From assembly GCA_964016885.1 (NCBI GenBank), contig CAXHJY010000608.1, positions 91,218 through 155,217 of the forward strand: 64,000 nt of DNA. Reading direction: 5' to 3'. The translations under genes and the position numbers were made by a program. Positions 18,985-47,081 of this stretch are shown here, piece after piece. This stretch comes from Eledone cirrhosa. Taxonomy: Eukaryota. Under the pieces are notes generated by a model, which made no database searches, was not told the DNA's origin, and saw nothing but the letters and a program-made list of their open reading frames with translations. The stretch's first letter is position 1; every line of letters begins with the position of its first letter.

Positions 18985-21275
18985 TGAAAAATTTGAACAG
19001 GAACAAAACAGAGAGCAGTACGAATCGTAATTAATTTCACGCTCTGGATAGTGGGTGGTGGCAGGGAACGACGTTTCGGGCATAAGCCCTTCCTCAGGTG
19101 AGAAGTGTGTGGGAACAGAGTTCAAAGGGTGTGTAGGGGAGTGGTGGAGAGACATATAGCGAAAAAAAACGGTGCGAATGAAATTAAAAATAAAAGTAAA
19201 AATAAAGCATGATCAAAATACAAGGAATGAAATAAAATGAAATATAAAAGCATGATCAAAATAAACTGAAATTAAAAAGGGGTAAAACAGGTGGTGGAAG
19301 GGTGTGGGGTGTGTAGGGGTGGTGGCGGGTGGAGTGGGGAGAGGGAGACGGGGTGTCCGAGCGGGGAGGGCTGAAGGTGGTGTGTGTGTGTAGGTGTACG
19401 TGTGTGTGTGTGTATGTGAAACTAAGGGTTGGGGGAAGAACGGGATTACATGTTCAGGAAGTGGTGTGTGCGTGGGGGGGGGGGTTGTAGGTCGGAATGT
19501 CAGTGCGTTTGTGGATAGAGGGATGGGGGGAGAGGAATCAGGAGGCTTAGGGTGTAAATATGTGGTGGAAAGCACGTGTGTGTGGGGGGTTTAAGCGTGT
19601 TGTGGGTGTAGGTGGCGTGTGGGAGAAAAAAATTGTTTGTGTGTGTGTGTGTGGGTGAGTTATATAGGTGATTCCGTAAGAGGATGGTTGAAATGTTGGT
19701 AAGTTCCTATGATGTTTAGTGGACTCTGTGGTGGTCAAGTTCCGCCTACGAGTATACCATGAAGAGATGTTCGGAAGAGGAGAGATGTGGGGTGCGCGCG
19801 CAACAGGAAGTGGTCAAGCGGTGGGAGTACTGTGTGTCTGTTTGTGCTGGGAGGTGGTCAGTGGGCATAGCAGGAGTCGGTGGAATGGTAAAAGGGCGAG
19901 AATGGGTAGGTGTGAAAGTTGGAATGAGGCGGGTGTGTGTGTGTATTAGTAGAGGTGTTAGTGGGATGAGTGAGTGTGGGGCGAGGATGTGGGTGGAGCG
20001 GGAAGAGAAGGGTGTGTGTAGTTCTATGGAGGGAGTGTGGTGTACTGGTGTGTGTGTAGTTTGATGAAGGGGGTGTTAGTGGGTGTTAGTATACGGGAGG
20101 TGGGGAAGAGTTGAATGCAGATGTGTGAGGGTTAGTGGTGGTAGGATGAGTAGAGTTGGTGCGTGTGTTCGTGTGCTTGGGGTTAGGGGGCGTTAATGAG
20201 GTTAGTTGCGGGGTGGTGGGATGGAGGTGTGGAGGTGAGGGTTAGTGGTGGTAGTAGTGTTTGTGTTTAGTGTGAGCGCGTGTATACATGTACCGGTGGG
20301 TGTGTGCGTGTGATAAGGAGGGGGTATTTAGGAGTAGAAGGGAGGGATGTTAGTTTGTTAGTTGGCGAAGGGTGGTCGGATGTGGGGGGGGGGTGAAAAT
20401 GAGGGGTGTGTTAGTGGTGTTAGTGGGGGATAAGTGTGGGGGAGGGGGCGGTCGAAGGCTAAAGGAATAAGGGTGGGGAGTTCAGGCCGGGGGGGAGTGT
20501 GGGTCTGTAAGATGAAGATAGTTCTTTGTTCGACTCTAAGGCGATTGGCGGTTGTTCCGTGGCATTGGAGTAGACCACAGACTGTGAGATGGCGTGCGTA
20601 ATGTCCAGGGCCACCAAAGTGGCGGGCGATGGCGGAACTACCACCGAGACGAATATCCCGGAGGTGCTCAGTGAATCGGTCCGCCAGGTGACGTCCCGTC
20701 TGTCCGACATAAGTCGCGCTGCGCGTAGACTAGGTTGAAGGTACTGCAGCGGAAGGCATGCCGGACAGAGAGAGAGTGGCCATTGGGACCCTGGAAGGTG
20801 GTGGTGTTGGTGATGTGGGGACAGGTCTTGCAGCAGGGCCTAGAACAGGGAAAGGAACCGGGGGGGGGGAACAGAGCGTGGGTTGGGGCATAGGGAGCTG
20901 TGGACGAGGAGGGTGCGAAGATTGCGTGCGCGTTTGAATGAGGGGAGTGGTGGGGTTGCGAAGATGTGGAAGGTGGAGGGGTCGGACTGGAGGTGTTGGA
21001 AGAGGCGGCGGATGGTGCGGTGGAGGGGTAAGGTGGAGGTGTGGTAGGTGATGGGGAAGGGGAGACGGTGGGTGGGTGTGCGGTGGCGTGGGGTGAGGGT
21101 GGTGGAGCGGTGGACAGCACGGGCGCGGGTGAGAGCGGTGTGGACAAGAGAGGGGGGTAACCTCTGCGGATGAAATGGCTGACTAGGGAAAGGGCCTGGG
21201 ACTCGAAGTCAGCAGCTCGGCTACAGAGGCTGCGGATCCTGAGGAGTTGGGAGTAGGGAATGGAGTGTTTAGTGT

Positions 21276-22057: not shown

Positions 22058-22781
22058 TATATTACTTCACTATTAGTTCACTTTGCTGCACTGGGTGGTT
22101 GCCGGAATTGTGCCCGGGATGGAAACCTTTATTGTTTATTTCGTGGTAGTCTCTTTAGTATTTTGGCCCCTTTTGTTAACCCGTCACCGTATCATTTACG
22201 TACTTATACCTCTTAAAAGGGTCCTCGCCTATTTCGTCCCACCTAGTTCTTTTACTTATTTCGTTATTTCTTTATTTCTTTCTTTACTTCTTTCTTTCTT
22301 TCTTTATTTATTTTTTCTAGACTAACAATAGCTACAGACCTAGGTCGTAGAATTTAATTTACTTTACTTTTTTCTTTACACTTATTAGTTTTTCTTTACA
22401 CTTATTTGCTTTTCTTCACTCTCAGTATTATTTCTACCCCCCCCCCCCCATTCTTCTACCTACCGTTCCGACTCCCCCCTCCCCCCCCCCCCTCCCCTGT
22501 ATCTTCTTTGACCTCATGCCCAGCTGTAGCTGGCACTACAAACGCTTGATTGGGGCTACTCCACCCCCTCCCCTCTTTCTCCTACTAGCAGGTTTAGCCA
22601 CCATCTCCCCTACTAATTTGCAACCACAGAATTACTACTGAATTTTGACAATCACTTTGACCATATATGGAATTACCCCTTGAGAAGATCGGCTATTTAA
22701 ATACCAGGATAAATTTTCATTTAGTCCAGAATTAGCCGTCGAAACGGCTTGAGCTCAGCTGTCGGGGTCTTACTGGTTCCT
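22058..22781 (+). mobile_element. Non-coding pLTR-like fragment ending in a hammerhead
   Basis: TA-flanked, pyrimidine-rich island with an HHR ~15 nt from its 3' end. Confidence 0.6.
22675..22768 (+). ncRNA. Type I hammerhead, U3-A8 core variant, extended stems
   Basis: ACCCC-TTGAGAA-GAtCGGCTA..TAGCCGTC-GAAA-CGGC..GCTG-TC-GGGGT: all three stems pair, GUC site. Confidence 0.82.
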
Positions 22782-22927
22782 ATATATATATTATCTATAT
22801 ATGTATATATTATCTATATATATATATATATATTATCTATATATATATAATATCTATATATATATATATCTATATATATTATCTATATATATATATATAT
22901 ATATTATCTATATATATATATATATAT

Positions 22928-22963
<36 letters not shown>

Positions 22964-23522
22964 CTATATATATATATATCTCTATATATATATATATATT
23001 ATCTATATATGTATATATTATCTATATATATATATATATATATATATTATCTATATATATATATATATAATCTAGATATATATATATTATATATATATAT
23101 ATTATTTATATATATATATATATATATTAACTATATATATATATATTATCTATCTATATATATATATATATATATATATTATTTATATATATATTTATAT
23201 ATATTATCTATATATCTATATATATATTAAAAACAAATAACGAAACGAAATTAAATTTTGTTTCATTTGTAACTCACTTTTGTATGACTGACGCTTAAAC
23301 AATTAAGTTAAAGATGTACATCCATATATGTATACTGAAATACTAGTATGTATATGAATACACACACGTATACATATGTAGATGTACCAAGTTTTTTCAC
23401 TGGTCACTTTACTGTGAGTGGCCAGCTATTCTGTATGTAAACACACAGACAAACCGGTTTTTAGAGTCATACTGGTTTTTGAGGAAACACCTTTCCTCTA
23501 TTCTCTAGAAAGCCAGACAAGG

Positions 23523-23567
23523 AATATTGAACTAGTTTCGTTGTTGTTACAACTCATCAGCAATATT
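23523..23567 (-). ncRNA. Minimal type I hammerhead, 467-bp family (first of 5 minus copies, every 467 bp)
   Basis: Reverse complement of the motif at 25730. Confidence 0.85.
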
Positions 23568-25729
23568 TACCTATCTTCCGGCCTCTCTAGAGAATCGTAA
23601 AAGCACATATCGTTATATGCTTTTTGTATGAAAATTAGTAGTGGGCATACTAATTTGCATAGAGTGTGAGTAAGTACCGGTTCAACGGAGACGATAAAAA
23701 CAAATAACGAAACGAAATTAAATTTTGTTTCATTTGTAACTCACTTTTGTATGACTGACGCTTAAACAATTAAGTTAAATATGTACATCCATATATGTAT
23801 ACTGAAATACTAGTATGTATATGAATACACACACGTATACATATGTAGATGTACCAAGTTTTTTCACTGGTCACTTTACTGTGAGTGGCCAGCTATTCTG
23901 TATGTAAACACACAGACAAACCGGTTTTTAGAGTCATACTGGTTTTTGAGGAAACACCTTTCCTCTATTCTCTAGAAAGCCAGACAAGGAATATTGAACT
24001 AGTTTCGTTGTTGTTACAACTCATCAGCAATATTTACCTATCTTCCGGCCTCTCTAGAGAATCGTAAAAGCACATATCGTTATATGCTTTTTGTATGAAA
24101 ATTAGTAGTGGGCATACTAATTTGCATAGAGTGTGAGTAAGTACCGGTTCAACGGAGACGATAAAAACAAATAACGAAACGAAATTAAATTTTGTTTCAT
24201 TTGTAACTCACTTTTGTATGACTGACGCTTAAACAATTAAGTTAAAGATGTACATCCATATATGTATACTGAAATACTAGTATGTATATGAATACACACA
24301 CGTATACATATGTAGATGTACCAAGTTTTTTCACTGGTCACTTTACTGTGAGTGGCCAGCTATTCTGTATGTAAACACACAGACAAACCGGTTTTTAGAG
24401 TCATACTGGTTTTTGAGGAAACACCTTTCCTCTATTCTCTAGAAAGCCAGACAAGGAATATTGAACTAGTTTCGTTGTTGTTACAACTCATCAGCAATAT
24501 TTACCTATCTTCCGGCCTCTCTAGAGAATCGTAAAAGCACATATCGTTATATGCTTTTTGTATGAAAATTAGTAGTGGGCATACTAATTTGCATAGAGTG
24601 TGAGTAAGTACCGGTTCAACGGAGACGATAAAAACAAATAACGAAACGAAATTAAATTTTGTTTCATTTGTAACTCACTTTTGTATGACTGACGCTTAAA
24701 CAATTAAGTTAAAGATGTACATCCATATATGTATACTGAAATACTAGTATGTATATGAATACACACACGTATACATATGTAGATGTACCAAGTTTTTTCA
24801 CTGGTCACTTTACTGTGAGTGGCCAGCTATTCTGTATGTAAACACACAGACAAACCGGTTTTTAGAGTCATACTGGTTTTTGAGGAAACACCTTTCCTCT
24901 ATTCTCTAGAAAGCCAGACAAGGAATATTGAACTAGTTTCGTTGTTGTTACAACTCATCAGCAATATTTACCTATCTTCCGGCCTCTCTAGAGAATCGTA
25001 AAAGCACATATCGTTATATGCTTTTTGTATGAAAATTAGTAGTGGGCATACTAATTTGCATAGAGTGTGAGTAAGTACCGGTTCAACGGAGACGATAAAA
25101 ACAAATAACGAAACGAAATTAAATTTTGTTTCATTTGTAACTCACTTTTGTATGACTGACGCTTAAACAATTAAGTTAAAGGTGTACATCCATATATGTA
25201 TACTGAAATACTAGTATGTATATGAATACACACACGTATACATATGTAGATGTACCAAGTTTTTTCACTGGTCACTTTACTGTGAGTGGCCAGCTATTCT
25301 GTATGTAAACACACAGACAAACCGGTTTTTAGAGTCATACTGGTTTTTGAGGAAACACCTTTCCTCTATTCTCTAGAAAGCCAGACAAGGAATATTGAAC
25401 TAGTTTCGTTGTTGTTACAACTCATCAGCAATATTTACCTATCTTCCGGCCTCTCTAGAGAATCGTAAAAGCACATATCGTTATATGCTTTTTGTATGAA
25501 AATTAGTAGTGGGCATACTAATTTGCATAGAGTGTGAGTAAGTACCGGTTCAACGGAGACGATAAAAACAAATAACGAAACGAAATTAAATTTTGTTTCA
25601 TTTGTAACTCACTTTTGTATGACTGACGCTTAAACAATTAAGTTAAAGATGTACATCCATATATGTATACTGAAATACTAGTATGTATATGAATACACAC
25701 ACGTATACATATGTATACATAGATAGGTA

Positions 25730-25774
25730 AATATTGCTGATGAGTTGTAACAACAACGAAACTAGTTCAATATT
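25730..25774 (+). ncRNA. Minimal type I hammerhead, 467-bp family (first of 11 plus copies, every 467 bp)
   Basis: AATATTG-CTGATGA-GTTG taacaa CAAC-GAAA-CTAG-TT-CAATATT: 7-bp stem I, palindromic AACTAGTT stem III. Confidence 0.87.
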
Positions 25775-28700
25775 CCTTGTCTGGCTTTCTAGAGAATAGA
25801 GGAAAGGTGTTTCCTCAAAAACCAGTATGACTCTAAAAACCGGTTTGTCTGTGTGTTTACATACAGAATAGCTGGCCACTCACAGTAAAGTGACCAGTGA
25901 AAAAACTTGGTACATCTACATATGTATACGTGTGTGTATTCATATACATACTAGTATTTCAGTATACATATATGGATGTACATCTTTAACTTAATTGTTT
26001 AAGCGTCAGTCATACAAAAGTGAGTTACAAATGAAACAAAATTTAATTTCGTTTCGTTATTTGTTTTTATCGTCTCCGTTGAACCGGTACTTACTCACAC
26101 TCTATGCAAATTAGTATGCCCACTACTAATTTTCATACAAAAAGCATATAACGATATGTGCTTTTACGATTCTCTAGAGAGGCCGGAAGATAGGTAAATA
26201 TTGCTGATGAGTTGTAACAACAACGAAACTAGTTCAATATTCCTTGTCTGGCTTTCTAGAGAATAGAGGAAAGGTGTTTCCTCAAAAACCAGTATGACTC
26301 TAAAAACCGGTTTGTCTGTGTGTTTACATACAGAATAGCTGGCCACTCACAGTAAAGTGACCAGTGAAAAAACTTGGTACATCTACATATGTATACGTGT
26401 GTGTATTCATATACATACTAGTATTTCAGTATACATATATGGATGTACATCTTTAACTTAATTGTTTAAGCGTCAGTCATACAAAAGTGAGTTACAAATG
26501 AAACAAAATTTAATTTCGTTTCGTTATTTGTTTTTATCGTCTCCGTTGAACCGGTACTTACTCACACTCTATGCAAATTAGTATGCCCACTACTAATTTT
26601 CATACAAAAAGCATATAACGATATGTGCTTTTACGATTCTCTAGAGAGGCCGGAAGATAGGTAAATATTGCTGATGAGTTGTAACAACAACGAAACTAGT
26701 TCAATATTCCTTGTCTGGCTTTCTAGAGAATAGAGGAAAGGTGTTTCCTCAAAAACCAGTATGACTCTAAAAACCGGTTTGTCTGTGTGTTTACATACAG
26801 AATAGCTGGCCACTCACAGTAAAGTGACCAGTGAAAAAACTTGGTACATCTACATATGTATACGTGTGTGTATTCATATACATACTAGTATTTCAGTATA
26901 CATATATGGATGTACATCTTTAACTTAATTGTTTAAGCGTCAGTCATACAAAAGTGAGTTACAAATGAAACAAAATTTAATTTCGTTTCGTTATTTGTTT
27001 TTATCGTCTCCGTTGAACCGGTACTTACTCACACTCTATGCAAATTAGTATGCCCACTACTAATTTTCATACAAAAAGCATATAACGATATGTGCTTTTA
27101 CGATTCTCTAGAGAGGCCGGAAGATAGGTAAATATTGCTGATGAGTTGTAACAACAACGAAACTAGTTCAATATTCCTTGTCTGGCTTTCTAGAGAATAG
27201 AGGAAAGGTGTTTCCTCAAAAACCAGTATGACTCTAAAAACCGGTTTGTCTGTGTGTTTACATACAGAATAGCTGGCCACTCACAGTAAAGTGACCAGTG
27301 AAAAAACTTGGTACATCTACATATGTATACGTGTGTGTATTCATATACATACTAGTATTTCAGTATACATATATGGATGTACATCTTTAACTTAATTGTT
27401 TAAGCGTCAGTCATACAAAAGTGAGTTACAAATGAAACAAAATTTAATTTCGTTTCGTTATTTGTTTTTATCGTCTCCGTTGAACCGGTACTTACTCACA
27501 CTCTATGCAAATTAGTATGCCCACTACTAATTTTCATACAAAAAGCATATAACGATATGTGCTTTTACGATTCTCTAGAGAGGCCGGAAGATAGGTAAAT
27601 ATTGCTGATGAGTTGTAACAACAACGAAACTAGTTCAATATTCCTTGTCTGGCTTTCTAGAGAATAGAGGAAAGGTGTTTCCTCAAAAACCAGTATGACT
27701 CTAAAAACCGGTTTGTCTGTGTGTTTACATACAGAATAGCTGGCCACTCACAGTAAAGTGACCAGTGAAAAAACTTGGTACATCTACATATGTATACGTG
27801 TGTGTATTCATATACATACTAGTATTTCAGTATACATATATGGATGTACATCTTTAACTTAATTGTTTAAGCGTCAGTCATACAAAAGTGAGTTACAAAT
27901 GAAACAAAATTTAATTTCGTTTCGTTATTTGTTTTTATCGTCTCCGTTGAACCGGTACTTACTCACACTCTATGCAAATTAGTATGCCCACTACTAATTT
28001 TCATACAAAAAGCATATAACGATATGTGCTTTTACGATTCTCTAGAGAGGCCGGAAGATAGGTAAATATTGCTGATGAGTTGTAACAACAACGAAACTAG
28101 TTCAATATTCCTTGTCTGGCTTTCTAGAGAATAGAGGAAAGGTGTTTCCTCAAAAACCAGTATGACTCTAAAAACCGGTTTGTCTGTGTGTTTACATACA
28201 GAATAGCTGGCCACTCACAGTAAAGTGACCAGTGAAAAAACTTGGTACATCTACATATGTATACGTGTGTGTATTCATATACATACTAGTATTTCAGTAT
28301 ACATATATGGATGTACATCTTTAACTTAATTGTTTAAGCGTCAGTCATACAAAAGTGAGTTACAAATGAAACAAAATTTAATTTCGTTTCGTTATTTGTT
28401 TTTATCGTCTCCGTTGAACCGGTACTTACTCACACTCTATGCAAATTAGTATGCCCACTACTAATTTTCATACAAAAAGCATATAACGATATGTGCTTTT
28501 ACGATTCTCTAGAGAGGCCGGAAGATAGGTAAATATTGCTGATGAGTTGTAACAACAACGAAACTAGTTCAATATTCCTTGTCTGGCTTTCTAGAGAATA
28601 GAGGAAAGGTGTTTCCTCAAAAACCAGTATGACTCTAAAAACCGGTTTGTCTGTGTGTTTACATACAGAATAGCTGGCCACTCACAGTAAAGTGACCAGT

Positions 28701-30968
28701 GAAAAAACTTGGTACATCTACATATGTATACGTGTGTGTATTCATATACATACTAGTATTTCAGTATACATATATGGATGTACATCTTTAACTTAATTGT
28801 TTAAGCGTCAGTCATACAAAAGTGAGTTACAAATGAAACAAAATTTAATTTCGTTTCGTTATTTGTTTTTATCGTCTCCGTTGAACCGGTACTTACTCAC
28901 ACTCTATGCAAATTAGTATGCCCACTACTAATTTTCATACAAAAAGCATATAACGATATGTGCTTTTACGATTCTCTAGAGAGGCCGGAAGATAGGTAAA
29001 TATTGCTGATGAGTTGTAACAACAACGAAACTAGTTCAATATTCCTTGTCTGGCTTTCTAGAGAATAGAGGAAAGGTGTTTCCTCAAAAACCAGTATGAC
29101 TCTAAAAACCGGTTTGTCTGTGTGTTTACATACAGAATAGCTGGCCACTCACAGTAAAGTGACCAGTGAAAAAACTTGGTACATCTACATATGTATACGT
29201 GTGTGTATTCATATACATACTAGTATTTCAGTATACATATATGGATGTACATCTTTAACTTAATTGTTTAAGCGTCAGTCATACAAAAGTGAGTTACAAA
29301 TGAAACAAAATTTAATTTCGTTTCGTTATTTGTTTTTATCGTCTCCGTTGAACCGGTACTTACTCACACTCTATGCAAATTAGTATGCCCACTACTAATT
29401 TTCATACAAAAAGCATATAACGATATGTGCTTTTACGATTCTCTAGAGAGGCCGGAAGATAGGTAAATATTGCTGATGAGTTGTAACAACAACGAAACTA
29501 GTTCAATATTCCTTGTCTGGCTTTCTAGAGAATAGAGGAAAGGTGTTTCCTCAAAAACCAGTATGACTCTAAAAACCGGTTTGTCTGTGTGTTTACATAC
29601 AGAATAGCTGGCCACTCACAGTAAAGTGACCAGTGAAAAAACTTGGTACATCTACATATGTATACGTGTGTGTATTCATATACATACTAGTATTTCAGTA
29701 TACATATATGGATGTACATCTTTAACTTAATTGTTTAAGCGTCAGTCATACAAAAGTGAGTTACAAATGAAACAAAATTTAATTTCGTTTCGTTATTTGT
29801 TTTTATCGTCTCCGTTGAACCGGTACTTACTCACACTCTATGCAAATTAGTATGCCCACTACTAATTTTCATACAAAAAGCATATAACGATATGTGCTTT
29901 TACGATTCTCTAGAGAGGCCGGAAGATAGGTAAATATTGCTGATGAGTTGTAACAACAACGAAACTAGTTCAATATTCCTTGTCTGGCTTTATAGAGAAT
30001 AGAGGAAAGGTGTTTCCTCAAAAACCAGTATGACTCTAAAAACCGGTTTGTCTGTGTGTTTACATACAGAATAGCTGGCCACTCACAGTAAAGTGACCAG
30101 TGAAAAAACTTGGTACATCTACATATGTATACGTGTGTGTATTCATATACATACTAGTATTTCAGTATACATATATGGATGTACATCTTTAACTTAATTG
30201 TTTAAGCGTCAGTCATACAAAAGTGAGTTACAAATGAAACAAAATTTAATTTCGTTTCGTTATTTGTTTTTATCGTCTCCGTTGAACCGGTACTTACTCA
30301 CACTCTATGCAAATTAGTATGCCCACTACTAATTTTCATACAAAAAGCATATAACGATATGTGCTTTTACGATTCTCTAGAGAGGCCGGAAGATAGGTAA
30401 ATATTGCTGATGAGTTGTAACAACAACGAAACTAGTTCAATATTCCTTGTCTGGCTTTCTAGAGAATAGAGGAAAGGTGTTTCCTCAAAAACCAGTATGA
30501 CTCTAAAAACCGGTTTGTCTGTGTGTTTACATACAGAATAGCTGGCCACTCACAGTAAAGTGACCAGTGAAAAAACTTGGTACATCTACATATGTATACG
30601 TGTGTGTATTCATATACATACTAGTATTTCAGTATACATATATGGATGTACATCTTTAACTTAATTGTATATATATATTTATATATATATATTATCAATA
30701 TATCTATATATATTTATATATATATAATCTATATATCTTTATATCTATATATATATATATATATATATATTATCAATATATATCTCTATATATATATGTA
30801 TATATAATCTATATATCTATATATATATAATATATATATCTATATATATATTATCTTTATATATATCTATATATATCTATATATATCTATATATTATCAA
30901 TATATATATATTATCAATGTATATATATATATCTATATATATATATATATATATTATCAATGTATATA

Positions 30969-31003
<35 letters not shown>

Positions 31004-31008
31004 TATCA

Positions 31009-31081
<73 letters not shown>

Positions 31082-31144
31082 CTATATATATATATAAATA
31101 TATATATATATTATCTGTATATATATATATATTATCTCTCTCTC

Positions 31145-31268
<124 letters not shown>

Positions 31269-31426
31269 CTATAAATATATATATATATCTATATATGCAA
31301 AGTTTTATTTAAATTGTTGGGTTACAACGAGTAAATATTTATAACTGATATAAAAGCACTCAACAAGTATTTGGAGTATATTTACGATATTAAATAAATG
31401 GAAACTATATTTATAAAACCATATTT

Positions 31427-31490
31427 ATTTCATTATATATATTTCAGGGATATCATATTAAAAATATGTTATGCCTTCTTCAGACAAAAT
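31427..31490 (-). ncRNA. Type I hammerhead of PLE family A
   Basis: ATTTTGT-CTGAAGA-AGG..CCT-GAAA-TATATA-TA-ATGAAAT. Confidence 0.8.
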
Positions 31491-33442
31491 ACAATATAAA
31501 CAGTCTTATAAATAGATAGATTTGACATACCTTTCAACTTCAACTTCCATTTAAAAAGTTGATTTGGTAGTGAAAATGTTAGGGACAGTTATAAAAAGAA
31601 AGAAAGAAAGAAAGAAAGAAAGAAAAAACGAAGAAAAAGAAGAAATGCATGCAACTAAATAGAGAGAGATAGATATAGAGAGATATATAGAGAGAGGAAT
31701 TCATGTAAAGAAACAGAGAGAGATATATAGAGAGGGGAAAAAACACAGAGGGAGATAGATAGAGAGAGAGATAGAGAGAGAGAAGAGAGAGAGAGAAAAA
31801 AAATAGAGAGAGATAGAGAGAAAGAAAATAGGTAGTTGGGCACCAGTTGAATGACGTATCAATGATATATTTATTTATTTATTTATTCATTTAATTCTAG
31901 TATTAATATAGAGAGAGATATATGTGGTTAGGAGAGAAAACAGCCGTTACATAGAGAGTAAAGAAAAATATCCAGACATAAACGAGGCAGACTTAAAATG
32001 TTTCATCAATGTAAAAATATCAATTCGTATGAATCAGGCATTATAATGTAAATATCAGTATTCATGAATGAGACACGTATCAATAATGTGTGAAAAATAA
32101 TGATCATATGTCTAGTTTAAAATTCCTAGGTTTATATCAGAGTTGAGATAAAATAGAAGGTTATCCCAGATTCGATACTATAGACATCCATGTGAATTTA
32201 CGTGATCAACTCTGCAAATTCCTATTTCACACGAAAACATTCTCATCGTGCTATAAAAATTCTAGTATACATATATGTGTACATACACACAAATATATAT
32301 AGAGTCTACATTAAATTTAACAATACTATTCATGTCTTTACTCTACATGATTATCGTTCAAGCATAAGTAGAGAACAGATATCAATATATCAATAAAAAT
32401 ATCAGAAATAAAAATAAAAAAATAAAAAAATATAAAAATATGAAAAATAAAAATATTAAAATATTAAAAATAAAAAAATAAAAAATAAAAAATAGAACAT
32501 AGTATGCCCCGCAAATCAACCACAGAGATCAACCTTCAAGGTTAATTGACAATATATTGCCAAGTTCGTTATAAGCATCAGAATCAAAAGCAAACAAAAC
32601 CAAAATTATTTACCAAAACCTGTCTAGCAGAAATCATTCCAAAAGTTTAGGATACCCATTTGATCTACAGATGGTCTTATATTTAATATAGAGGTTTATC
32701 TAGTGTAAAATTTATTCGATATATTTGGAGCATCAGCTTTTAGGGTAGTTTAATTATTCATGAAGAATGTTTAAAATAAAAAATGAAATCGGAAGATTTA
32801 TCGGCGAGTTTCATAAATAATTATAAATCAAGTTAAATATATTACATTTTAAATTTATATTTATATTTAAAAGTTGAGTTCAATCTATGTCTGCAGCAAG
32901 TGAATAAATTTGTTCGTAAATTAAGGGAATTTTTAGATTTTAGTATAAAGAATATCTCCTCCGCACAGAGGTCACATGTCTCAGAGGATGAATTAAAAGG
33001 AATCCCTCTTGAGACTATATTCCAAGCCGTCGAATATCCAACGTTATCATGCTTAAGTTGCCAGAGTAAGCCTGATAGTGATGTTGAAGATTTTTTGCTT
33101 GGATCTGTGAAAGAATTCTTGTGGTTATTATAGCGAAGTTTAAATTCTGTCGAGGTGGAACCAACATAGTTAAAATAATTTAAGTCCGTTTTAACATTAC
33201 AGTTGTATATTATATTTTTAACTAAGCAATTGTTATTTAACGGACATTTAGATCTATCTCTACAGTTACATTTGTTTACTTGGATATTATTTATGCTATT
33301 ATCGCTAGGTTTTAAATTCCTATTATTTATTCTATTAATATTTTGTGCTAAATTTTTGGTGGATGAGTAAGTTAATTTTATAGTATGTCTATTGAAAATT
33401 GAGTGATACCTATGTGTTCTAGGGAAGCGATTATCAAGAGCA

Positions 33443-34717
33443 TTAAAAAAATAGTTTAGCGATGTGGGTTTTAATGTTTAGTGAAAAAGGGGGGGCAAAC
33501 CATATTATATTCCTAGTTCTATTTCTTTTTTGGCTTTTGGAATTATTGTAATGCTTTCTATTATAGTTTTTAAAGTTGTTGCCGTAATTAAAATTGTTGT
33601 TATTTTGGTTAGTTTGTCTATTATTATCTATGTACATAATTGTATCACTATATCCTGCTCTAGCTAACGCTTCATTGTAATACTGGGCTTTTTCGTCGAA
33701 AATCTTTTTATTAGATGAGATTCTAGAGATACGTTTTTGAACAGAGTTTACTATAGTATTTTTAACAGATCTGGGGTGGTTAGAGTTAAAGCTGACATAG
33801 TTTAAGTTTTCATTCAACTTGTGAAATGGATAGTGAAGACATGTGTTGAGATTTAATGTTACATCTAGGAAATTGACTATTCTATGGTTATTCTCAATTT
33901 CTATTTTTAGATTAAAATAATTAAAAAATTGTGTAATTTGTTTTCTTTTTCTATTTAGTTCAGAGTTATTATTTTCAATAAGTAAAAGCATGTCATCTCT
34001 ATATAAACCTCCGGTAGCACCGGGTATTTTCCTATGCAGAGAATTGATTATAAATAGGCCCACAAGGTCAGTTACCTGAGCTGAGTCGGATGATCCCATA
34101 GTAATGTCGAAATTGTTATCTCTATCTGCTCTGGTCCATAGTTGGTCATTAAATTCTATCAATGTTTTCCTAGCCGATAATATAATGTGCATTTCATTGC
34201 TAGTTAGGTCTGTATATTTGAATGCGTAATTTTGTGCCTTATTTAGTAGATTAGGGGTAATAGATGAATAATAGTTAGCTATATCTAGTTGAATACATTT
34301 ATTATTATTGTTATATTTTATTTCTTTAAACCACTCAATAACCTCTCCAGTTCCCTTCCACAAGCTCAAGGTAGGTAAACAATTCAAGTTTTTAATTTGC
34401 TGTATCACCCTGTCTAGAATGTTTTTGATTAGTTTACCCAGGTCAGATTTTGATGGTGCAATCAATCTGACTGGCAGGTCATTTTCAAAATTTCTTTTAT
34501 GATCTTTCATATTGATCTTCGGTTTCCTGGGCACGAAAGGTTGTGTTCTGTTCTCAATTTCCAACTCATCCATTATACAAGATGCCTCAACATTCATTTT
34601 CTCAAGCTCAGCCTTATCTGCTACCTTGTACTTTTTCCTCAGTTCTTTCAGTATGAGGCCATTATACATGTCTTGTTGCACTCCATAGAGGTTGTTGGTC
34701 TTGTCAGATTTCACCAA
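33443..34717 (-). CDS. PLE reverse transcriptase (remnant ORF; EN in another frame)
   Basis: KSDKTNN, MKDHK, VRLIAPSK, QLDIANYYSSI, ITMGSSDS, GLYRDD, FLDVTLNL. Confidence 0.85.
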   Translation of the reverse strand: MVKSDKTNNLYGVQQDMYNGLILKELRKKYKVADKAELEKMNVEASCIMDELEIENRTQPFVPRKPKINMKDHKRNFENDLPVRLIAPSKSDLGKLIKNILDRVIQQIKNLNCLPTLSLWKGTGEVIEWFKEIKYNNNNKCIQLDIANYYSSITPNLLNKAQNYAFKYTDLTSNEMHIILSARKTLIEFNDQLWTRADRDNNFDITMGSSDSAQVTDLVGLFIINSLHRKIPGATGGLYRDDMLLLIENNNSELNRKRKQITQFFNYFNLKIEIENNHRIVNFLDVTLNLNTCLHYPFHKLNENLNYVSFNSNHPRSVKNTIVNSVQKRISRISSNKKIFDEKAQYYNEALARAGYSDTIMYIDNNRQTNQNNNNFNYGNNFKNYNRKHYNNSKSQKRNRTRNIIWFAPPFSLNIKTHIAKLFF

Positions 34718-34869
34718 GATCTTCTCAGTTTTCTCTAAGCTCTCAATATTATCCTTAATGCCTTTCAGATATTCCTGGCCTTTGAAGTTTCTCTTGAATT
34801 TGACTCCTTGTATGATAGTAATTATATCGTTTTCAAAGTCAAATAAAATAAAATAAAATAAAATAAAAT

Positions 34870-36714: not shown

Positions 36715-38048
36715 TTAGAAACACACAGATACATGCGGACACACACATATATACATGAATGCATCCGCACCCAACTGTGAGTTAAGGGTGCCAACTTCAC
36801 CGATGTTGCTCAATGAATGACTGGGACAGACCAATTCAGTTGTACCAGACTGAACCAGTATCAGAGTTAAAAATACATTATGAAGAGAGAAGAAACATTT
36901 AGATATAATTAGTAATAAAATGTATCATACCTAAACTGCTCCTAAATTCCTCGACTACGTAGTTTCGTGGCATAAATAAAAACAATATATCATAAAGATA
37001 TAGTGTCCCTGCGAGGTCTGCCGACTTATCAAGAGGATACCTCATTTTACTAGTCTCAAGAACGCGTCTACACGACGTGAGAAAGAATCCCAAAAGGCGG
37101 AGGGGGAGATAGTCACGCGATATAACGGTCGAGAAACAGAGCTAAGCCTCTTATAACCCCGAAGAAAATACCACGGAGGTGGAGGGGGTATTTATATCGA
37201 GGCCGTAGAAGAGGTGGTGAAGAAGGCGAGAAGTATGAGTAATGGAAGCTTTCCAGCTGTCCCCACACTTCAAAGGTTGCTCGACCAGAGGGAGTTATTA
37301 ACAATATATTTAGAAACACACAGATACATGCGGACACACACATATATACATGATTGCATCCGCACCCAACGTAGTCGAGGAATTTAGGAGCAGTTTAGGT
37401 ATGATACATTTTATTACTAATTATATCTAAATGTTTCTTCTCTCTTCATAATGTATTTTTAACTCTGATACTGGTTCAGTCTGGTACAACTGAATTGGTC
37501 TGTCCCAGTCATTCATTGAGCAACATCGGTGAAGTTGGCACCCTTAACTCACAGTTGGGTGCGGATGCATTCATGTATATATGTGTGTGTCCGCATGTAT
37601 CTGTGTGTTTCTAAATATATTGTTAATAACTCCCTCTGGTCGAGCAACCTTTGAAGTGTGGGGACAGCTGGAAAGCTTCCATTACTCATACTTCTCGCCT
37701 TCTTCACCACCTCTTCTACGGCCTCGATATAAATACCCCCTCCGCCTCCGTGGTATTTTCTTCGGGGTTATAAGACGCTTAGCTCTGTTTCTCGACCGTT
37801 ATATCGCGTGACTATCTCCCCCTCCGCCTTTTGGGATTCTTTCTCACGTCGTGTAGACGCGTTCTTGAGACTAGTAAAATGAGGTATCCTCTTGATAAGT
37901 CGGCAGACCTCGCAGGGACTCTATATCTTTATGATATATTGTTTTTGTTTATGCCACGAAACTACGTAGTCGAGGAATTTAGGAGCAGTTTAGGTATGAT
38001 ACATTTTATTACTAATTATATCTAAATGTTTCTTCTCTCTTCATAATG

Positions 38049-38203: not shown

Positions 38204-39049
38204 AAAAGACGTAAAATAAGAAAATTTAAAAAAATTTTTTTTAAAAAATTAACTTACTTACTTAAATGTTCACTCCAACTAATTAGTTTCTGCAATGGGA
38301 TAAAGACAGTTATGTAATGAACTGTTGAGAATTTCGTTGCGTCATCAGGGATGTCTATTCTCAGCCAAGTCTGCAGGCAATGCCCGGACACTGGGGACTC
38401 ATATAAAAATAATAATAATTCGGTAAATGGAACAGCTATCGAGGACTGGATTCCAGGTACTGAAAATTCTCACTGGTACCGGTCATATGGCCGATTCTAA
38501 AGAATCAATCACGTGATACAGAGGCTAGTCAGTAGGAATGGGATGGTAAGATGACAGACGCCTACTACTGGGGGTGTTAGTAGGCGTCTGTCATCTTACC
38601 ATCCCATTCCTACTGACTAGCCTCTGTGTCACGTGATTGATTCTTTAGAATCGGCCATATGACCAGTAGCAGTGAGAATATTCAGTACCTGGAATCCAGT
38701 CCTCGATAGCTGTTCCATTTACCGAATTATTATTATTTTTATATGAGTCCCCAGTGTCCGGGCATTGCCTGGAGACTTGGCTGAGAATAGAACTCCCTGA
38801 TGACGCAATGAAATTCTCAACAGTTCATTACGTAACTGTCTTTATCCCGTTGCAGAAACTAATTAGTTGGAGTGAAAATTTAAGTAAGTTAACTTTAAAA
38901 AATTTTTTTTTTTAATTTTTCTTATTTTACGTCTTTTATATTATTGTTCTGCATCCTCCTGCATTGAACCACCTAGGTACTATGACATAACGTGTGTATT
39001 TGCTGGCATTAGCGTACATCTGTGCGCTTATGTTAGTAGATATATTAAA
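38204..39049. mobile_element. Fold-back insertion of a diverged 522-bp-family element
   Basis: 38204-38570 inverts 38578-38940, with ~110 nt of extra tail on the right. HHRs at 38272-38353(-) and 38792-38873(+). Confidence 0.85.
38792..38873 (+). ncRNA. Type I hammerhead, 522-bp family relative
   Basis: ACTCC-CTGATGA-cGCAATG..CGTTGCa-GAAA-CTAATTAG-TT-GGAGT; covaries with 530-611. Confidence 0.8.
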
Positions 39050-39119
39050 TTATCTATATATATACATATATATTATCTATATATATATATATATTATCTA
39101 TCTATATATATATATATTA

Positions 39120-39901: not shown

Positions 39902-41680
39902 TAATATATATGAGTAATATATATGTTGAAACAGATACCAACATATCTGTATTTATATTGCAAAAGAAAGTTAGCCAGACTGAAGAATATTAATTATTAT
40001 ACCACAGTTCGTCCACATCGATTTAAAATAATAATAATAATAAATCGACAAAAAACTAGTTGTGCTGCCAAATGGCAATGATGTTTATACATATTTAAAT
40101 TTCAAAGTCAAACCTGTTCAGTAGATAAGTTTAAACCTCAAAATCCAAACATGTTTCGAGATGGATATAAGTGTAGGAATATCATGCCACTGCTCTCCTC
40201 AGTAAACATCCAGAGACAATTGATAAGCTTCACTTCTAAATAATTTAAAAGGATTTTTACTGAGGAGAGCAGTGGCATGATATTCCTACACTTATATCCA
40301 TCTCGAAACATGTTTGGATTTTGAGGTTTAAACTTATCTACTGAACAGGTTTGACTTTGAAATTTAAATATGTATAAACATCATTGCCATTTGGCAGCAC
40401 AACTAGTTTTTGTCGATTTATTATTATTATTATTTTAAATCGATGTGGACGAACTGTGGTATAATAATTAATATTCTTCAGTCTGGCTAACTTTCTTTTG
40501 CAATATAAATACAGATATGTTGGTATCTGTTTCAACATATATATTACTCATATATATTACTTTTATACACGGCTCAGGAATATTTCCTTTCGAGCTAATT
40601 CCATTGTAAAAGAATTCCTTACACTTAATATAACGGCTCTTCGTCGAGCTAAATTTCGCCTCATATATACGACTGTTATTTCTAGCAGTACGGTTATGAG
40701 ACTAGCCTGAATCTGTGAACCCATGTGCGTCACACAGTCTTTTAAATTATTTAGAAGTGAAGCGTATCAATTGTCTCTGGATGTTTACTGAGGAGAGCAG
40801 TGGCATGATATTCCTACACTTATATCCATCTCGAAACATGTTTGGATTTTGAGGTTTAAACTTATCTACTGAACAGGTTTGACTTTGAAATTTAAATATG
40901 TATAAACATCATTGCCATTTGGCAGCACAACTAGTTTTTGTCGATTTATTATTATTATTATTTTAAATCGATGTGGACGAACTGTGGTATAATAATTAAT
41001 ATTCTTCAGTCTGGCTAACTTTCTTTTGCAATATAAATACAGATATGTTGGTATCTGTTTCAACATATATATTACTCATATATATTACTTTTATACACGG
41101 CTCAGGAATATTTCCTTTCGAGCTAATTCCATTGTAAAAGAATTCCTTACACTTAATATAACGGCTCTTCGTCGAGCTAAATTTCGCCTCATATATACGA
41201 CTGTTATTTCTAGCAGTCCGGTTATGAGACTAGCCTGAATCTGTGAACCCATGTGCGTCACACAGTCTTTTAAATTATTTAGAAGTGAAGCTTATCAATT
41301 GTCTCTGGATGTTTACTGAGGAAAGCAGTGGCATGATATTCCTACACTTATATCCATCTCGAAACATGTTTGGATTTTGAGGTTTAAACTTATCTACTGA
41401 ACAGGTTTGACTTTGAAATTTAAATATGTATAAACATCATTGCCATTTGGCAGCACAACTAGTTTTTGTCGATTTATTATTATTATTATTTTAAATCGAT
41501 GTGGACGAACTGTGGTATAATAATTAATATTCTTCAGTCTGGCTAACTTTCTTTTGCAATATAAATACAGATATGTTGGTATCTGTTTCAACATATATAT
41601 TACTCATATATATTACTTTTATACACGGCTCAGGAATATTTCCTTTCGAGCTAATTCCATTGTAAAAGAATTCCTTACAC

Positions 41681-42060: not shown

Positions 42061-42458
<398 letters not shown>

Positions 42459-43731: not shown

Positions 43732-44624
43732 CTATATATATATATATATATTATCTATATATATATATATATATGCAAAAGTTTTATTTAAAATTGTAGG
43801 GTTACAACGAGTAAATATTTTATAACTGATATAAAAGCACTCAACAGGTTTTGGAGTAGGTTTGCGATATTAAACAAATGGAAACTATATTTATAAAACC
43901 ATATTTATTTCATTATATATATTTCAGGGATACCATATTAAAAATATTCATTCATGAATATTGATATCTACATTGTAATACCTAATTCATATGAATTGAT
44001 AATTCAAATCGACGAGACATAATATTTTAAATATATTTTAAATATATTTTAAATATATCATCTTTCTTTCTTTTTCTCCTCTACACTTGACGAGACTTAT
44101 ATATCGGCTGTTTTTAACTGTATTTCTCCCACCTCGTATGATAGATATTACTCGATCTACCTCTTTTCTCCCACCACATATATCTCTCTCTACCTCTCTT
44201 TATTTATCATATTTCTCTCCGTATCCTTAACACTATAACTAAATAAATAAATAAATAAATAATTACAGTACCCCCTCCCCTCCTTAATATCTCATTTCTA
44301 CGCTGATCATCTGTCTCCAAGCTGCCTATCATTTTTCACTCCCTCAATATATTTCTCTCTCCCATATCTCTTTCTCTCTATCTCGCTCTGTTGCTTTCTT
44401 TGCATACATCTCTTCATCTTCTTCTCTAACTGTCCTTAGCGCTATGCATTTTCTTTCTTCTTCTCTTCTTTTTTTATCTTCTTTTTTTTTTTCTTTTTTT
44501 CTTTTTTCTCTTCGTCCTTCTTTTTAACTGTCCTCAACATTTTCACTACCAAATCAACTTTTTAAATGGAAGTTGCACTGTTCTATGTATGTCAAATTTA
44601 TTTATAAAATGGTTTATATATTGT

Positions 44625-44688
44625 ATTTTGTCTGAGGAAGGCATACCATATTTTTAATATGGTATCCCTGAAATATATATAATGAAAT
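44625..44688 (+). ncRNA. Type I hammerhead of PLE family A, ~180 nt upstream of the ATG
   Basis: ATTTTGT-CTGAGGA-AGGcATACCATAT..ATATGGTATcCCT-GAAA-TATATA-TA-ATGAAAT. Another copy at 49957-50020(-). Confidence 0.85.
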
Positions 44689-44869
44689 AAATATGGTTTT
44701 ATAAATATAGTTTCCATTTGTTTAATATCGTAAACCTACTCCAAAACCTGTTGAGTGCTTTTATATCAGTTATAAAATATTTACTCGTTGTAACCCTACA
44801 ATTTTAAATACAACTTTTGCATATATTTTGCTCCAATACGGTTGGGCGCTTTATATTATAACTGAAAAA

Positions 44870-47081
44870 ATGGAATTCTTTAAGATCTCTTCTTCTCTAA
44901 AAGACATACCTCTACCTAGAAACAAGGACTTTATTAAACAACTAATAGATAAATCAGACTCGTTTATAAGGAGAATCAGGTGGCGTGCATTCCACTTTGA
45001 TAAATCTAATATAAATGAAAATGTCTCAGACTTAGACAAAGTTTTCAAATCCAAAAAAAATCCACCCCCCAACAAACTTTTAATTGATTTTGAAAACGAT
45101 ATAATTTCTATCATACAAGGAGTCAAATTCAAGAGAAACATCAAAGGCCAGGAGTATCTGAAAAGCATTAAGGATAATATTGTGAGCTTAGAGAGAACAG
45201 AGAAGATCTTGGTGAAATCGGACAAAACCAACAACCTCTATGGAGTGGAAAAAGACATGTATAATGGCCTCATACTGAAAGAACTAAGGTAAAAGTACAA
45301 GGTAGCAGATAAGGCCGAACTTGAGAAAATGAATGTTGAGGCATCTTGTATAATGCACGAGTTGGAAGTTGAGAACAAAACACAACCTTTCGTGCCCAGG
45401 AAACCCAAGATCAATATGAAAGACCACAAAAGGAATTTTGAAAATGACTTGCCAGTCAGATTGATTGCACCATCAAAATCTGACCTGGGTAAGCTTAGCA
45501 AAAACATTCTAGACAGGGTGATACAGCAAATTAAAAACTTGAACTGTTTACCTAACTTGACCTTGTGGAAGGGAACTGGGGAGGTCATTGAGTGGTTTAA
45601 TGAAATTAAATATAACAATAATAATAAATTTATTCAACTAGATATTGCTAACTACTATTCATCTATTACCCCTAATCTACTAAATAAGGCTCTAAATTAC
45701 GCATTCAAACATACAGACCTAACTAGCAATGAAATGCACATTATATTATCGGCAAGGAAAACATTGATAGAATTTAATAACCAACTATGGACTAGGGCAG
45801 ATAGAGATAATAATTTCGACATTACTATGGGATCATCCGACTCAGCTCAGGTAACGGACCTTGTGGGCCTATTTATAATTAATTCGCTGCATAGGAAAAT
45901 ACCCGGTCTTACCGGAGGATTATATAGAGATGACATGCTTTTACTTATTGAAAATAATAACTCTGAACTAAATAGAAAAAGAAAACAAATTATACAATTT
46001 TGTAATTACCTTAATCTAAAAATAGAAATTGAGAATAACCATAGAATAGTCAATTTCATAGATGTAACATTAAATCTCAACACATGCCTTCACTATCCAT
46101 TTCACAAGTTAAATGAAAACTTGAATTATGTCAGTTTTAGCTCTAATCACCCCAGATCTGTCAAAAATACTATAGTGAACTCTGTTCAAAAACGTATCTC
46201 TAGAATCTCATCTAATAAAAATATTTTCGACGAAAAAGCCCAGTATTACAATGATGCGTTAGCTAGAGCAGGATATACTGATAAAATTATGTACATCGAC
46301 AAACTAACCGAAATAACAACAATTTTAATCACAGTAACAACTTTAACAACTATGATAGAAAGCATTACAATAATTCCAAAAACCAGAAAAGAAATAGAAC
46401 TAGAAATATAATATGGTTTGCCACCCTTTCTCACTAAACATTAAAACCCACATCGCTAAACTATTTTTTAATGCTCTTGACAAACGCTTCCCTAGAACAC
46501 ATAAGTATCACTCAATTTTCAATAGACATACCATAAAATTAACATACTCGTCCACCAAAAATTTAGCACAAAATATTAATAGAATAAATAATAGGAATCT
46601 AAAACCTAGCCAAAATACCGAAAATAGCCTAAACAATATTCAAGTAAACAACTGTAACTGTAGAGATAGATCTAAATGTCCGCTAAATAACAATTGCTTA
46701 GTTAAAAATATAATATACAACTGTAATGTTAAAACTGACTTAAATTATTTTAATTATGTTGGTTCCACCTCGACAGAATTTAAACTTCGCTATAATAATC
46801 ACAAGAATTCTTTCACGGATCCAAGTAAAAAATCTTCAACATCACTATCAGGTTTACTCTGGCAACTTAAACATGATAACGTTGGATATTCGATGGTTTG
46901 GAATATAGTCTCAAAAGGGATTCCTTTTAATTCCTCTCCTGAGACATGTGACCTCTGCGCGGAGGAGATATTCTTTATACTAAAATCTAAAAATTCCCTT
47001 AATTTACGGACCAATTTATTCAGCTGCTGCAGACATAGATTGAACTCAACTTTTAAATATAAATATAAATTTAAAATGTAG
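44870..47081 (+). pseudogene. PLE RT plus GIY-YIG polyprotein with one nonsense change and one frameshift
   Basis: MEF..SSLKDIPLP..RIRWRAFHF, KSDKT, YRDD, CNCRDRSKC, YVGST, CDLC. TAA at 45290-45292 where the sister copy reads Lys; frameshift near 46300-46420. Confidence 0.9.

What the first reader, a model, noticed from the sequence alone, without database searches (positions are those of the whole stretch)
23229..30668. 16-copy, near-identical 467-bp hammerhead concatemer with one inversion: a rolling-circle cDNA footprint
Seen: 5.3 units pointing left and 10.6 pointing right, each with a minimal HHR. I spotted only three substitutions (23780, 25182, 29992). A 5-nt filler, TACAT, sits at the turn, and both ends fall mid-unit at TA. 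Inference: this was one recent insertion made by reverse transcription going repeatedly round a 467-nt circular RNA from two primers, rather than an ordinary satellite.
Basis: partly seen in the sequence, partly recalled or inferred. Interest (0 to 1): 0.85.

Follow-up and report, generated by a model that had tools for sequence, protein, structure and literature searches.

The report
Ribozyme repeat inserted from both ends
This 7.4-kb head-to-head array of a 467-base self-cutting-RNA repeat belongs to a family spread across the genome whose two arms almost always stop at two fixed sites, one site per arm, which suggests a Penelope-type reverse transcriptase copied a likely circular RNA from both ends of a broken (TA)n site.

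Summary
It is a non-LTR retrozyme: a non-coding, strongly folding 467-nt type I hammerhead repeat with 5,201 exact ribozyme cores genome-wide.

In 59 loci, 99 of 103 arm ends fall at two fixed unit sites about 72 nt apart. In 38 of 39 classifiable head-to-head loci, one arm ends at each site. That matches the Penelope-like element (PLE) 'tail' and two-start-site signature. Inner joints are random, often with microhomology.

Both arms share locus-specific variants in every unit, with no scars or run-offs at the cleavage site, which favours one circular monomer copied repeatedly. Against this: some old loci clearly grew later by block duplication, no RNA was seen, and no cognate PLE was found. 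The ribozyme is not 'minimal'.

Verdict: a new member of a known kind, with unusually clean genomic evidence on an open mechanistic question. Interest 0.58.

The parts
22781..23227 (.). Left half of the degenerate (TA)n target tract
   Evidence: TRF; sequence (TTATC interruptions run the same way on both sides of the array)
23228..25715 (-). Left arm, 5.33 units; inner (RNA 5') end at unit position 197, outer (RNA 3') end at unit 349 = site B. Unit position 1 = window 25721
25716..25720 (.). 5-nt filler TACAT at the inversion; an inverted copy of the last five bases of the left arm (inferred snap-back)
25721..30668 (+). Right arm, 10.60 units; inner end at unit 1, outer end at unit 278 = site A
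25721..25780 (+). Type I hammerhead (first + copy, repeated every 467 nt): bulged stem I, CUGAUGA core at 25737, stem II GUUG/CAAC, palindromic helix III ACUAGU, predicted cut GUU^C at 25767/25768
25768..26234 (+). One cut-to-cut monomer, the predicted 467-nt RNA (linear or circular); non-coding, 34% GC
   Evidence: fold z -9.2 on a nearly identical permutation; circular fold -140.8 kcal/mol; longest ATG frame 27-30 aa
25995..26071 (+). 'Tail' segment between site A (unit 275-282) and site B (unit 343-351), holding a conserved hairpin (unit 310-338); inferred binding and priming region for the reverse transcriptase
30668..31296 (.). Right half of the degenerate (TA)n target tract; a target-site duplication cannot be told from the repeat

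Best explanation
This is one recent insertion of a non-coding hammerhead retrozyme, likely made by a Penelope-like element's enzyme that primed reverse transcription from both ends of a cut (TA)n tract at two fixed sites of a likely circular 467-nt RNA. SHOWN: the anatomy; the genome-wide family; two fixed outer-end sites used once each per insertion; variable inner joints with microhomology or short fillers; one haplotype across both arms; RNA-strand structure kept among variants. INFERRED: read-through transcripts self-cleave at GUU^C (helped by dimerisation through the palindromic helix III) and a host ligase closes the monomer. A PLE protein, probably a dimer, binds the hairpin between sites A and B and cuts both strands of (TA)n. 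One freed 3' end primes at A, the other at B, each on 1-2 nt of U/A pairing. Each RT runs repeatedly round the circle, giving 5.3 and 10.6 copies. The two cDNA 3' ends then join by microhomology or snap-back and copy each other, which leaves the head-to-head array. Later, some old arrays grow further by ordinary block duplication.
For: Family: 5,201 exact ribozyme cores. Ends: 103 arm ends in 59 loci, 50 at A, 49 at B, 4 elsewhere; of 41 two-arm loci 38 are A+B, 1 A+A, 0 B+B, 2 unclassifiable; P=7e-11 against independent choice. The 27 loci taken in chromosome order behave like the 31 taken by identity. A sister family (4,142 cores) gave A+B in all 15 cleanly called two-arm loci of 28 examined (two look like one duplicated locus). 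A ~65%-identical third family also shows two different ends in its clearer two-arm loci. A Hydra-clade PLE in the same window (RWR, DKT, CxCx5C) ends in (TA)n at two sites ~90 nt apart, 8 and 6 of 14 ends found in 30 loci. A purified PLE cuts and extends both strands and starts RT at two internal sites that define the tail (PMC11167929). Joints: 15 of 21 clean junctions overlap by 1-8 nt, 12 by 2 or more, against 19% by chance. Single-unit template: variants fixed in all units of both arms, e.g. window 418C 16/16, L033 140T 18/18, L059 285A 17/17, L074 384G/388G/389G 19/19. 22 of 27 loci of 4 or more units have no variant shared by only some units. No variant at unit 44-49 in 325 passes; 1 of 103 inner ends in unit 40-55. 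RNA-level selection: compensatory change in stem II (U-A 23, A-U 13 of 36) and many G-U-preserving changes on this strand.
Against: No RNA, circle or cleavage was observed. No autonomous PLE with sequence likeness to the unit was found. Old loci show 2-, 3- and 4-unit higher-order duplications, one arm reaching 31 units, so length can arise after insertion. 5 of 27 larger loci are mosaic, including L088+89 with a period-3 variant in one arm only. Ribozyme-inactivating changes sit in adjacent units at a few loci. Depletion of inherited variants in the ribozyme is weak (2 of 61 positions, 5.6 expected, P=0.06). The tail is ~72 nt, not the 30-40 nt reported. In the anole PLE the ribozyme is not needed for insertion in vitro. 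Only 4 of 145 predicted pairs show two-sided change.
Confidence: 0.7

Rival explanations
1. Same two-site, two-ended PLE priming, but the template is an uncleaved linear read-through transcript of an existing homogeneous array, not a circle.
For: Ribozyme cleavage is dispensable for the anole PLE in vitro and unprocessed RNA is its main substrate. An uncleaved multimer also leaves no scar at the cut site. Mosaic loci L042, L051, L034 need more than one unit type as template. Dead-core copies occur side by side at some loci.
Against: Linear copying can only keep or shorten an array. Yet many different haplotypes each form arms of 11-13 units with their own variant in every unit (L033, L054, L059, L074, L088+89), which needs a single-unit bottleneck followed by repeated copying. 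Stem II and the stems closing the monomer are kept by compensatory or wobble changes.
Confidence: 0.16
2. A short PLE-type insertion of 1-2 units per arm was lengthened afterwards at DNA level (unequal crossing-over, slippage or DNA circles), as in an ordinary satellite.
For: Clear block duplications of already mutated units at C10:47.40 Mb, C1:375.6 Mb, C3:354.5 Mb, C1:5.74 Mb and L084.
Against: In this locus all three substitutions are single-unit. 22 of 27 larger loci have only single-unit or all-unit variants, so duplication is usually slower than mutation, yet arrays of 14-20 units with 0-3 mutations are common. Both arms would have to expand separately. Arm lengths in the 59 loci stop near 6.0 kb.
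Confidence: 0.1
3. The inversion comes from one priming event plus fold-back self-priming, as proposed for rotifer Penelope (PMC3846280), not from two target-primed cDNAs.
For: A few junctions are near-symmetric (L047, L057, L080, L083) and this locus has a 5-nt palindromic filler.
Against: Most inner ends of the two arms lie at unrelated unit positions (here 197 and 1). Simple fold-back does not explain why the second arm stops at the other fixed site.
Confidence: 0.03
4. The array or its inversion is a sequencing or assembly artefact.
For: The window lies on a 155-kb unplaced contig, and no long reads could be laid.
Against: The arms are not mirror images. The same geometry recurs at 41 loci, mostly on chromosome-size contigs, each with its own haplotype. 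Contigs of run X1 show loose (TA)n ends at the same two sites (library not on record, and it may be the source sample).
Confidence: 0.01

Closest known systems
Non-LTR retrozymes of animals (Cervera and de la Pena 2020, PMC7229834; Li et al. 2026, 10.64898/2026.07.22.740005)
   Same: Non-coding, low-GC, strongly self-paired tandem unit with one type I hammerhead per unit, thousands of dispersed copies, coexisting with PLEs; proposed to be copied from circles into tandem cDNA by a PLE RT.
   Different: The unit is a little longer than the 170-400 nt first reported (inside the 51-972 bp range of 2026). In the parts I read neither paper describes head-to-head arms or fixed priming sites ('inverted' 0 times in the first; 'head-to-head' 0 times in the second). 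Here no parent pLTR was found.
Penelope-like elements, EN+ (Craig et al. 2021, PMC8557442; Frangieh et al. 2024, PMC11167929), Hydra clade for (TA)n targeting
   Same: Inverted 5'-truncated copy head-to-head with the main copy, a tail at one end only, two internal RT start sites, AT-rich target, hammerhead upstream of the start sites.
   Different: No ORF; many short identical units instead of a partial tandem of a 3-4 kb element; tail ~72 nt instead of 30-40; the hammerhead is not the minimal PLE type; one-site-per-arm pairing is counted here (38 of 39) rather than noted as frequent.
L1 twin priming (recalled, not read here)
   Same: Two target-primed cDNAs from opposite sides of the cut, joined internally with microhomology, giving a 5' inversion.
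   Different: L1 primes first at a poly(A) tail and second at a variable internal site on a linear mRNA; here both sites are fixed and internal, and each arm runs through many units.
Newt satellite 2 / axolotl retrozymes (passages in PMC6155905 and PMC7229834)
   Same: Type I hammerhead with a weak helix III, expected to work as a dimer.
   Different: Those are described as satellite-like tandem repeats; here young loci are discrete two-armed insertions and only older ones grow satellite-like higher-order repeats.

Membership tests
Non-LTR retrozyme | Type I hammerhead in each tandem unit | tested here: met
   16 cores in 15.9 units; HH9-like fold; stem II covariation
Non-LTR retrozyme | Short, low-GC, non-coding monomer | tested here: met
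   467 nt, GC 0.34, longest ATG frame 27-30 aa; above the 170-400 nt of 2020, inside the 51-972 bp of 2026
Non-LTR retrozyme | Highly self-paired RNA | tested here: met
   MFE -142.7 kcal/mol, z -9.2, 0 of 100 shuffles as good; structure kept over 36 natural monomers
Non-LTR retrozyme | Dispersed, dimers to multimers, no LTR architecture | tested here: met
   PBS/PPT not scanned separately
Non-LTR retrozyme | Self-cleavage activity | not testable with these tools
   only 1 of 9 predicted Xenopus elements cleaved in vitro, so activity cannot be assumed
Non-LTR retrozyme | Expressed as linear and circular monomer RNA | not testable with these tools
   no RNA run could be laid
Non-LTR retrozyme | Target-site duplication longer than 4 bp when present | tested here: inconclusive
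   flanks are (TA)n; any duplication is hidden
PLE insertion signature | Inverted 5'-truncated copy head-to-head with the main copy | tested here: met
   41 of 59 loci called two-armed with a joint under 100 nt; several others have very short second arms
PLE insertion signature | Tail at one end only / two RT start sites | tested here: met
   38 of 39 A+B; length ~72 nt rather than 30-40
PLE insertion signature | Insertion in (TA)n (Hydra clade) | tested here: met
   Hydra description
PLE derivative by descent | Sequence likeness to the pLTR of an autonomous PLE | tested here: inconclusive
   none in the loci held or in three relaxed ribozyme pattern searches; only a small part of ~33,600 RT candidates was seen
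Autonomous PLE | RT plus GIY-YIG ORF | tested here: not met
Minimal (PLE-type) hammerhead | No helix III, no tertiary-contact elements | tested here: not met
   2-bp palindromic helix III and bulged extended stem I; definition
Rfam Hammerhead_HH9 (RF02275) | Score at or above gathering 52 bits | tested here: not met
   39.3 bits
Ordinary satellite DNA | Array built by stepwise duplication (shared partial variants, higher-order repeats), ends not fixed | tested here: not met
   not met at this locus or in 22 of 27 larger loci; met secondarily in old loci

The most novel reading that the evidence does not exclude
Each insertion is the fossil of one dimeric Penelope enzyme running two reverse transcriptases round the same 467-nt ribozyme-made RNA circle from two fixed start sites, one per broken DNA end, the two cDNAs then serving as each other's second-strand template. 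The retrozyme lineage (three families down to ~65% identity) would evolve as an independent viroid-like RNA that hijacks PLEs by a tail hairpin rather than descending from a current pLTR. That would be in vivo evidence of double rolling-circle target-primed reverse transcription and a general explanation of the PLE inverted-plus-tail structure.
Probability: 0.4. Interest if true: 0.8.

Novelty: new member of a known kind. Interest (0 to 1): 0.58.

Why it matters
How animal retrozymes get back into DNA, and why Penelope-like elements land as inverted copies with a tail at one end, are both stated as unresolved in the papers read. This family ties the two together. It carries the PLE two-start-site signature with near-strict one-site-per-end pairing, and its long homogeneous arms point to a circular template. 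It names the RNA, the two start sites and the target needed for a direct in vitro test. It also shows young two-armed insertions turning into satellite-like arrays with age.

Tried and rejected
Cognate PLE search: blastn of the unit against held loci, relaxed ribozyme patterns (one search had a wrong spacer and returned only indel variants) and tblastn beside the hits found only unrelated PLEs in neighbouring (TA)n tracts. L062 (LINE-like ORF in the joint) and L145 were checked and rejected as partners.

'Dimer circle from a dead ribozyme': suggested by the 934-nt periodicity at C10:47.40 Mb. Dropped as evidence because other dead-core loci show period 1, 3 or 4 with many old mutations, which fits later block duplication.

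'Hard 6-kb arm ceiling': holds in the 59 loci but not in others (6.7, 6.9, 8.9 and 14.3 kb).

Arm-length correlation: rho 0.48 over 38 loci, but not significant in the 15 unbiased ones; not used.

junctions: 41 examined, 12 not callable, 8 set aside because a private variant or long filler spoiled the exact call, 21 counted.

I mis-registered stem II by one column, so its totals understate pairing; one search is used instead.

Sequencing runs: no RNA holder listed. X4 and X5 hold the unit at depth about 10-25 and X21 not at all; not interpreted.

Pfam gave only a weak GIY-YIG hit for 1 of 6 window proteins. Earlier-findings look-ups were empty. I did not determine the host organism.
Full report
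Observation. The window is G000:C635:91218-155217 of a 3.0-Gb assembly. The array is as described: 5.33 units on the minus strand (23228-25715), TACAT, 10.60 units on the plus strand (25721-30668), three single-unit substitutions and 16 CUGAUGA cores, inside a degenerate (TA)n tract. Unit position 1 is window 25721. The ribozyme is a type I hammerhead with a bulged extended stem I, a 4-5 bp stem II, a 2-bp palindromic helix III and a GUU^C site at unit 47/48. Rfam's best match is HH9 at 39.3 bits, below its gathering score. It is not a minimal PLE-type motif by the published definition. The monomer is non-coding and 34% GC and folds far better than its shuffles (z -9.2).

Family. The unit is dispersed: 5,201 exact cores, a sister family about 89% identical with 4,142 cores, and a third family about 65% identical in the ribozyme region. 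I studied 59 loci of the main family: the window, 31 from the identity-ranked list and 27 taken in order along C1. Across 36 natural monomers, stem II has a compensatory change (U-A 23, A-U 13) and most one-sided changes keep pairing as G-U on the ribozyme strand, though only 4 of 145 pairs change on both sides. This points to selection on the RNA. Depletion of inherited variants in the ribozyme is only suggestive (2 of 61 positions, 5.6 expected, P=0.06).

The two-site rule. Of 103 outer arm ends, 50 lie at unit 275-282 (site A), 49 at 343-351 (site B) and 4 elsewhere. Of 41 head-to-head loci, 38 have one arm at A and one at B, one has A+A (L034, whose two flanks are identical for 55 nt), none has B+B, and two have one unclassifiable end; P=7e-11 for 38 of 39 against independent choice. 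This locus is B on the left and A on the right. Several apparently one-armed loci hide a second arm of about a dozen bases ending at A; others are truly one-armed. The sister family gave A+B in all 15 cleanly called two-arm loci of 28 examined. Contigs of run X1 have loose (TA)n ends at window 26001 and 26070, the same sites; its library is not on record and it may be the source sample. A conserved hairpin lies between A and B. Inner ends are spread over the unit, and 15 of 21 clean joints overlap by 1-8 nt, 12 by at least 2 against 19% by chance.

What that signature is. PLE insertions often have an inverted truncated copy and a 30-40 nt tail at one end only, and Hydra-clade PLEs target (TA)n (PMC8557442, passages and section 11). 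A purified anole PLE cuts and extends both strands, is predicted to be a dimer, and starts reverse transcription at two internal sites that bound the tail (PMC11167929, parts 1-2 of 4). A Hydra-type PLE in this window has the RWR, DKT and CxCx5C motifs and ends at two sites about 90 nt apart (8 and 6 of 14 ends in 30 loci). Other head-to-head elements in the window also have unequal ends. So the array works like a PLE insertion. I found no autonomous PLE resembling the unit, so descent from a pLTR and the identity of the mobilising enzyme stay open.

Circle or not. For: variants are usually in every unit of both arms or in a single unit. Examples are the window's 418C (16/16, shared only with L033 among the 59), L033 140T 18/18, L054 13G 13/13, L059 285A 17/17 and L074 three variants 19/19. 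22 of 27 loci of four or more units have no partly shared variant. That needs a single-unit bottleneck followed by repeated copying faster than mutation. There is no variant at unit 44-49 in 325 passes and 1 of 103 inner ends near the cut site, so the template had no free end there. Against: old loci show 2-, 3- and 4-unit block duplications and arms up to 31 units; five of the 27 are mosaic; dead cores occur in adjacent units at some loci, which dimeric trans-cleavage or later duplication could explain; an uncleaved multimer would also leave no scar; and no RNA was seen. I put the circular two-ended model at 0.70, a linear multimer template at 0.16, later DNA-level growth at 0.10, fold-back at 0.03 and artefact at 0.01.

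Comparison and novelty. It meets every sequence-testable feature of a non-LTR retrozyme (PMC7229834, passages). That paper already proposes tandem cDNA from circles made by a PLE RT, and a 2026 preprint supports the PLE link by co-occurrence and pLTR likeness (parts 1-3 of 5 read). The class is therefore known. Seven searches found no paper describing head-to-head arms with paired fixed start sites in a retrozyme, or counting one-site-per-end pairing. Subscription papers and supplements (such as the model figure of PMC7229834) were not seen and may bear on this. PMC3846280 (passages) offers fold-back self-priming as an alternative origin of PLE inversions. L1 twin priming is recalled, not read. 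Verdict: new member of a known kind, real, with evidence that makes the mobilisation mechanism directly testable; interest 0.58.

Noticed in passing
window 43777-48543 (+) and 31299-34862 (-): Two copies of a Hydra-type PLE (RT and GIY-YIG-like end, ORF broken by a stop and a frameshift in the first); ~3.96-kb unit, short inverted arm at 43777-43947, two fixed end sites ~90-95 nt apart; 33,630 RT candidates genome-wide.
   Followed up: partly
window 39912-41675: A 528-nt hammerhead repeat (palindromic helix III, GUU site, long stem II), head-to-head in (TA)n, with arms ending about 60 nt apart in the unit: a second retrozyme with the same geometry.
   Followed up: partly
window 6749-13064: A 2.9-kb hammerhead-bearing unit without a long ORF, with internal 505- and 230-nt repeats, head-to-head; its two outer ends differ by about 146 nt.
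   Followed up: no
window 111-1174, 38212-39054, 36722-38042, 42065-42311, 13874-14280, 15906-16958, 53287-56000, 59807-60249, 62006-62439: Further small tandem or inverted elements in (TA)n tracts (522- and 595-nt units among them), several with hammerhead-like cores and unequal outer ends; nearly the whole window is such insertions.
   Followed up: no
window 1-110 and L090 end; L040:1-690; L139:8500-10000: A third, distant retrozyme family (~420-468 nt) related to the 467-nt unit, sharing the ribozyme layout and the tail hairpin.
   Followed up: partly
window 2561-6080 and 49923-52689: More PLE ORF pieces of other families; two face each other at 3113-4867 (+) and 4989-6080 (-).
   Followed up: no
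window 1386-2476, 14819-15900, 18986-21267: Fragments that look like LINE reverse transcriptase ends and a GC-rich GIY-YIG-like PLE piece of another type (labels recalled from motifs, not tested).
   Followed up: no
L133+L134 (C10:47.398-47.405 Mb), L165+L166, L170, L146+L147: Older arrays of the family with 2-, 3- and 4-unit higher-order repeats, up to 31 units in one arm: retrozyme insertions turning into satellites.
   Followed up: partly
L088+L089; L042: One arm has a period-3 variant absent from the other arm; L042 mixes two haplotypes in both arms. Unexplained: multimeric template, template switching or later conversion.
   Followed up: partly
L062:3459-8304: A LINE-like ORF of about 1,040 aa and another tandem repeat sit between a B-ended and an A-ended arm.
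   Followed up: no
runs X4, X5 and others: The unit is listed in runs labelled with many different organisms; the two laid hold it at low depth, one as a single 497-nt cyclic contig. Carry-over or real presence not resolved.
   Followed up: partly
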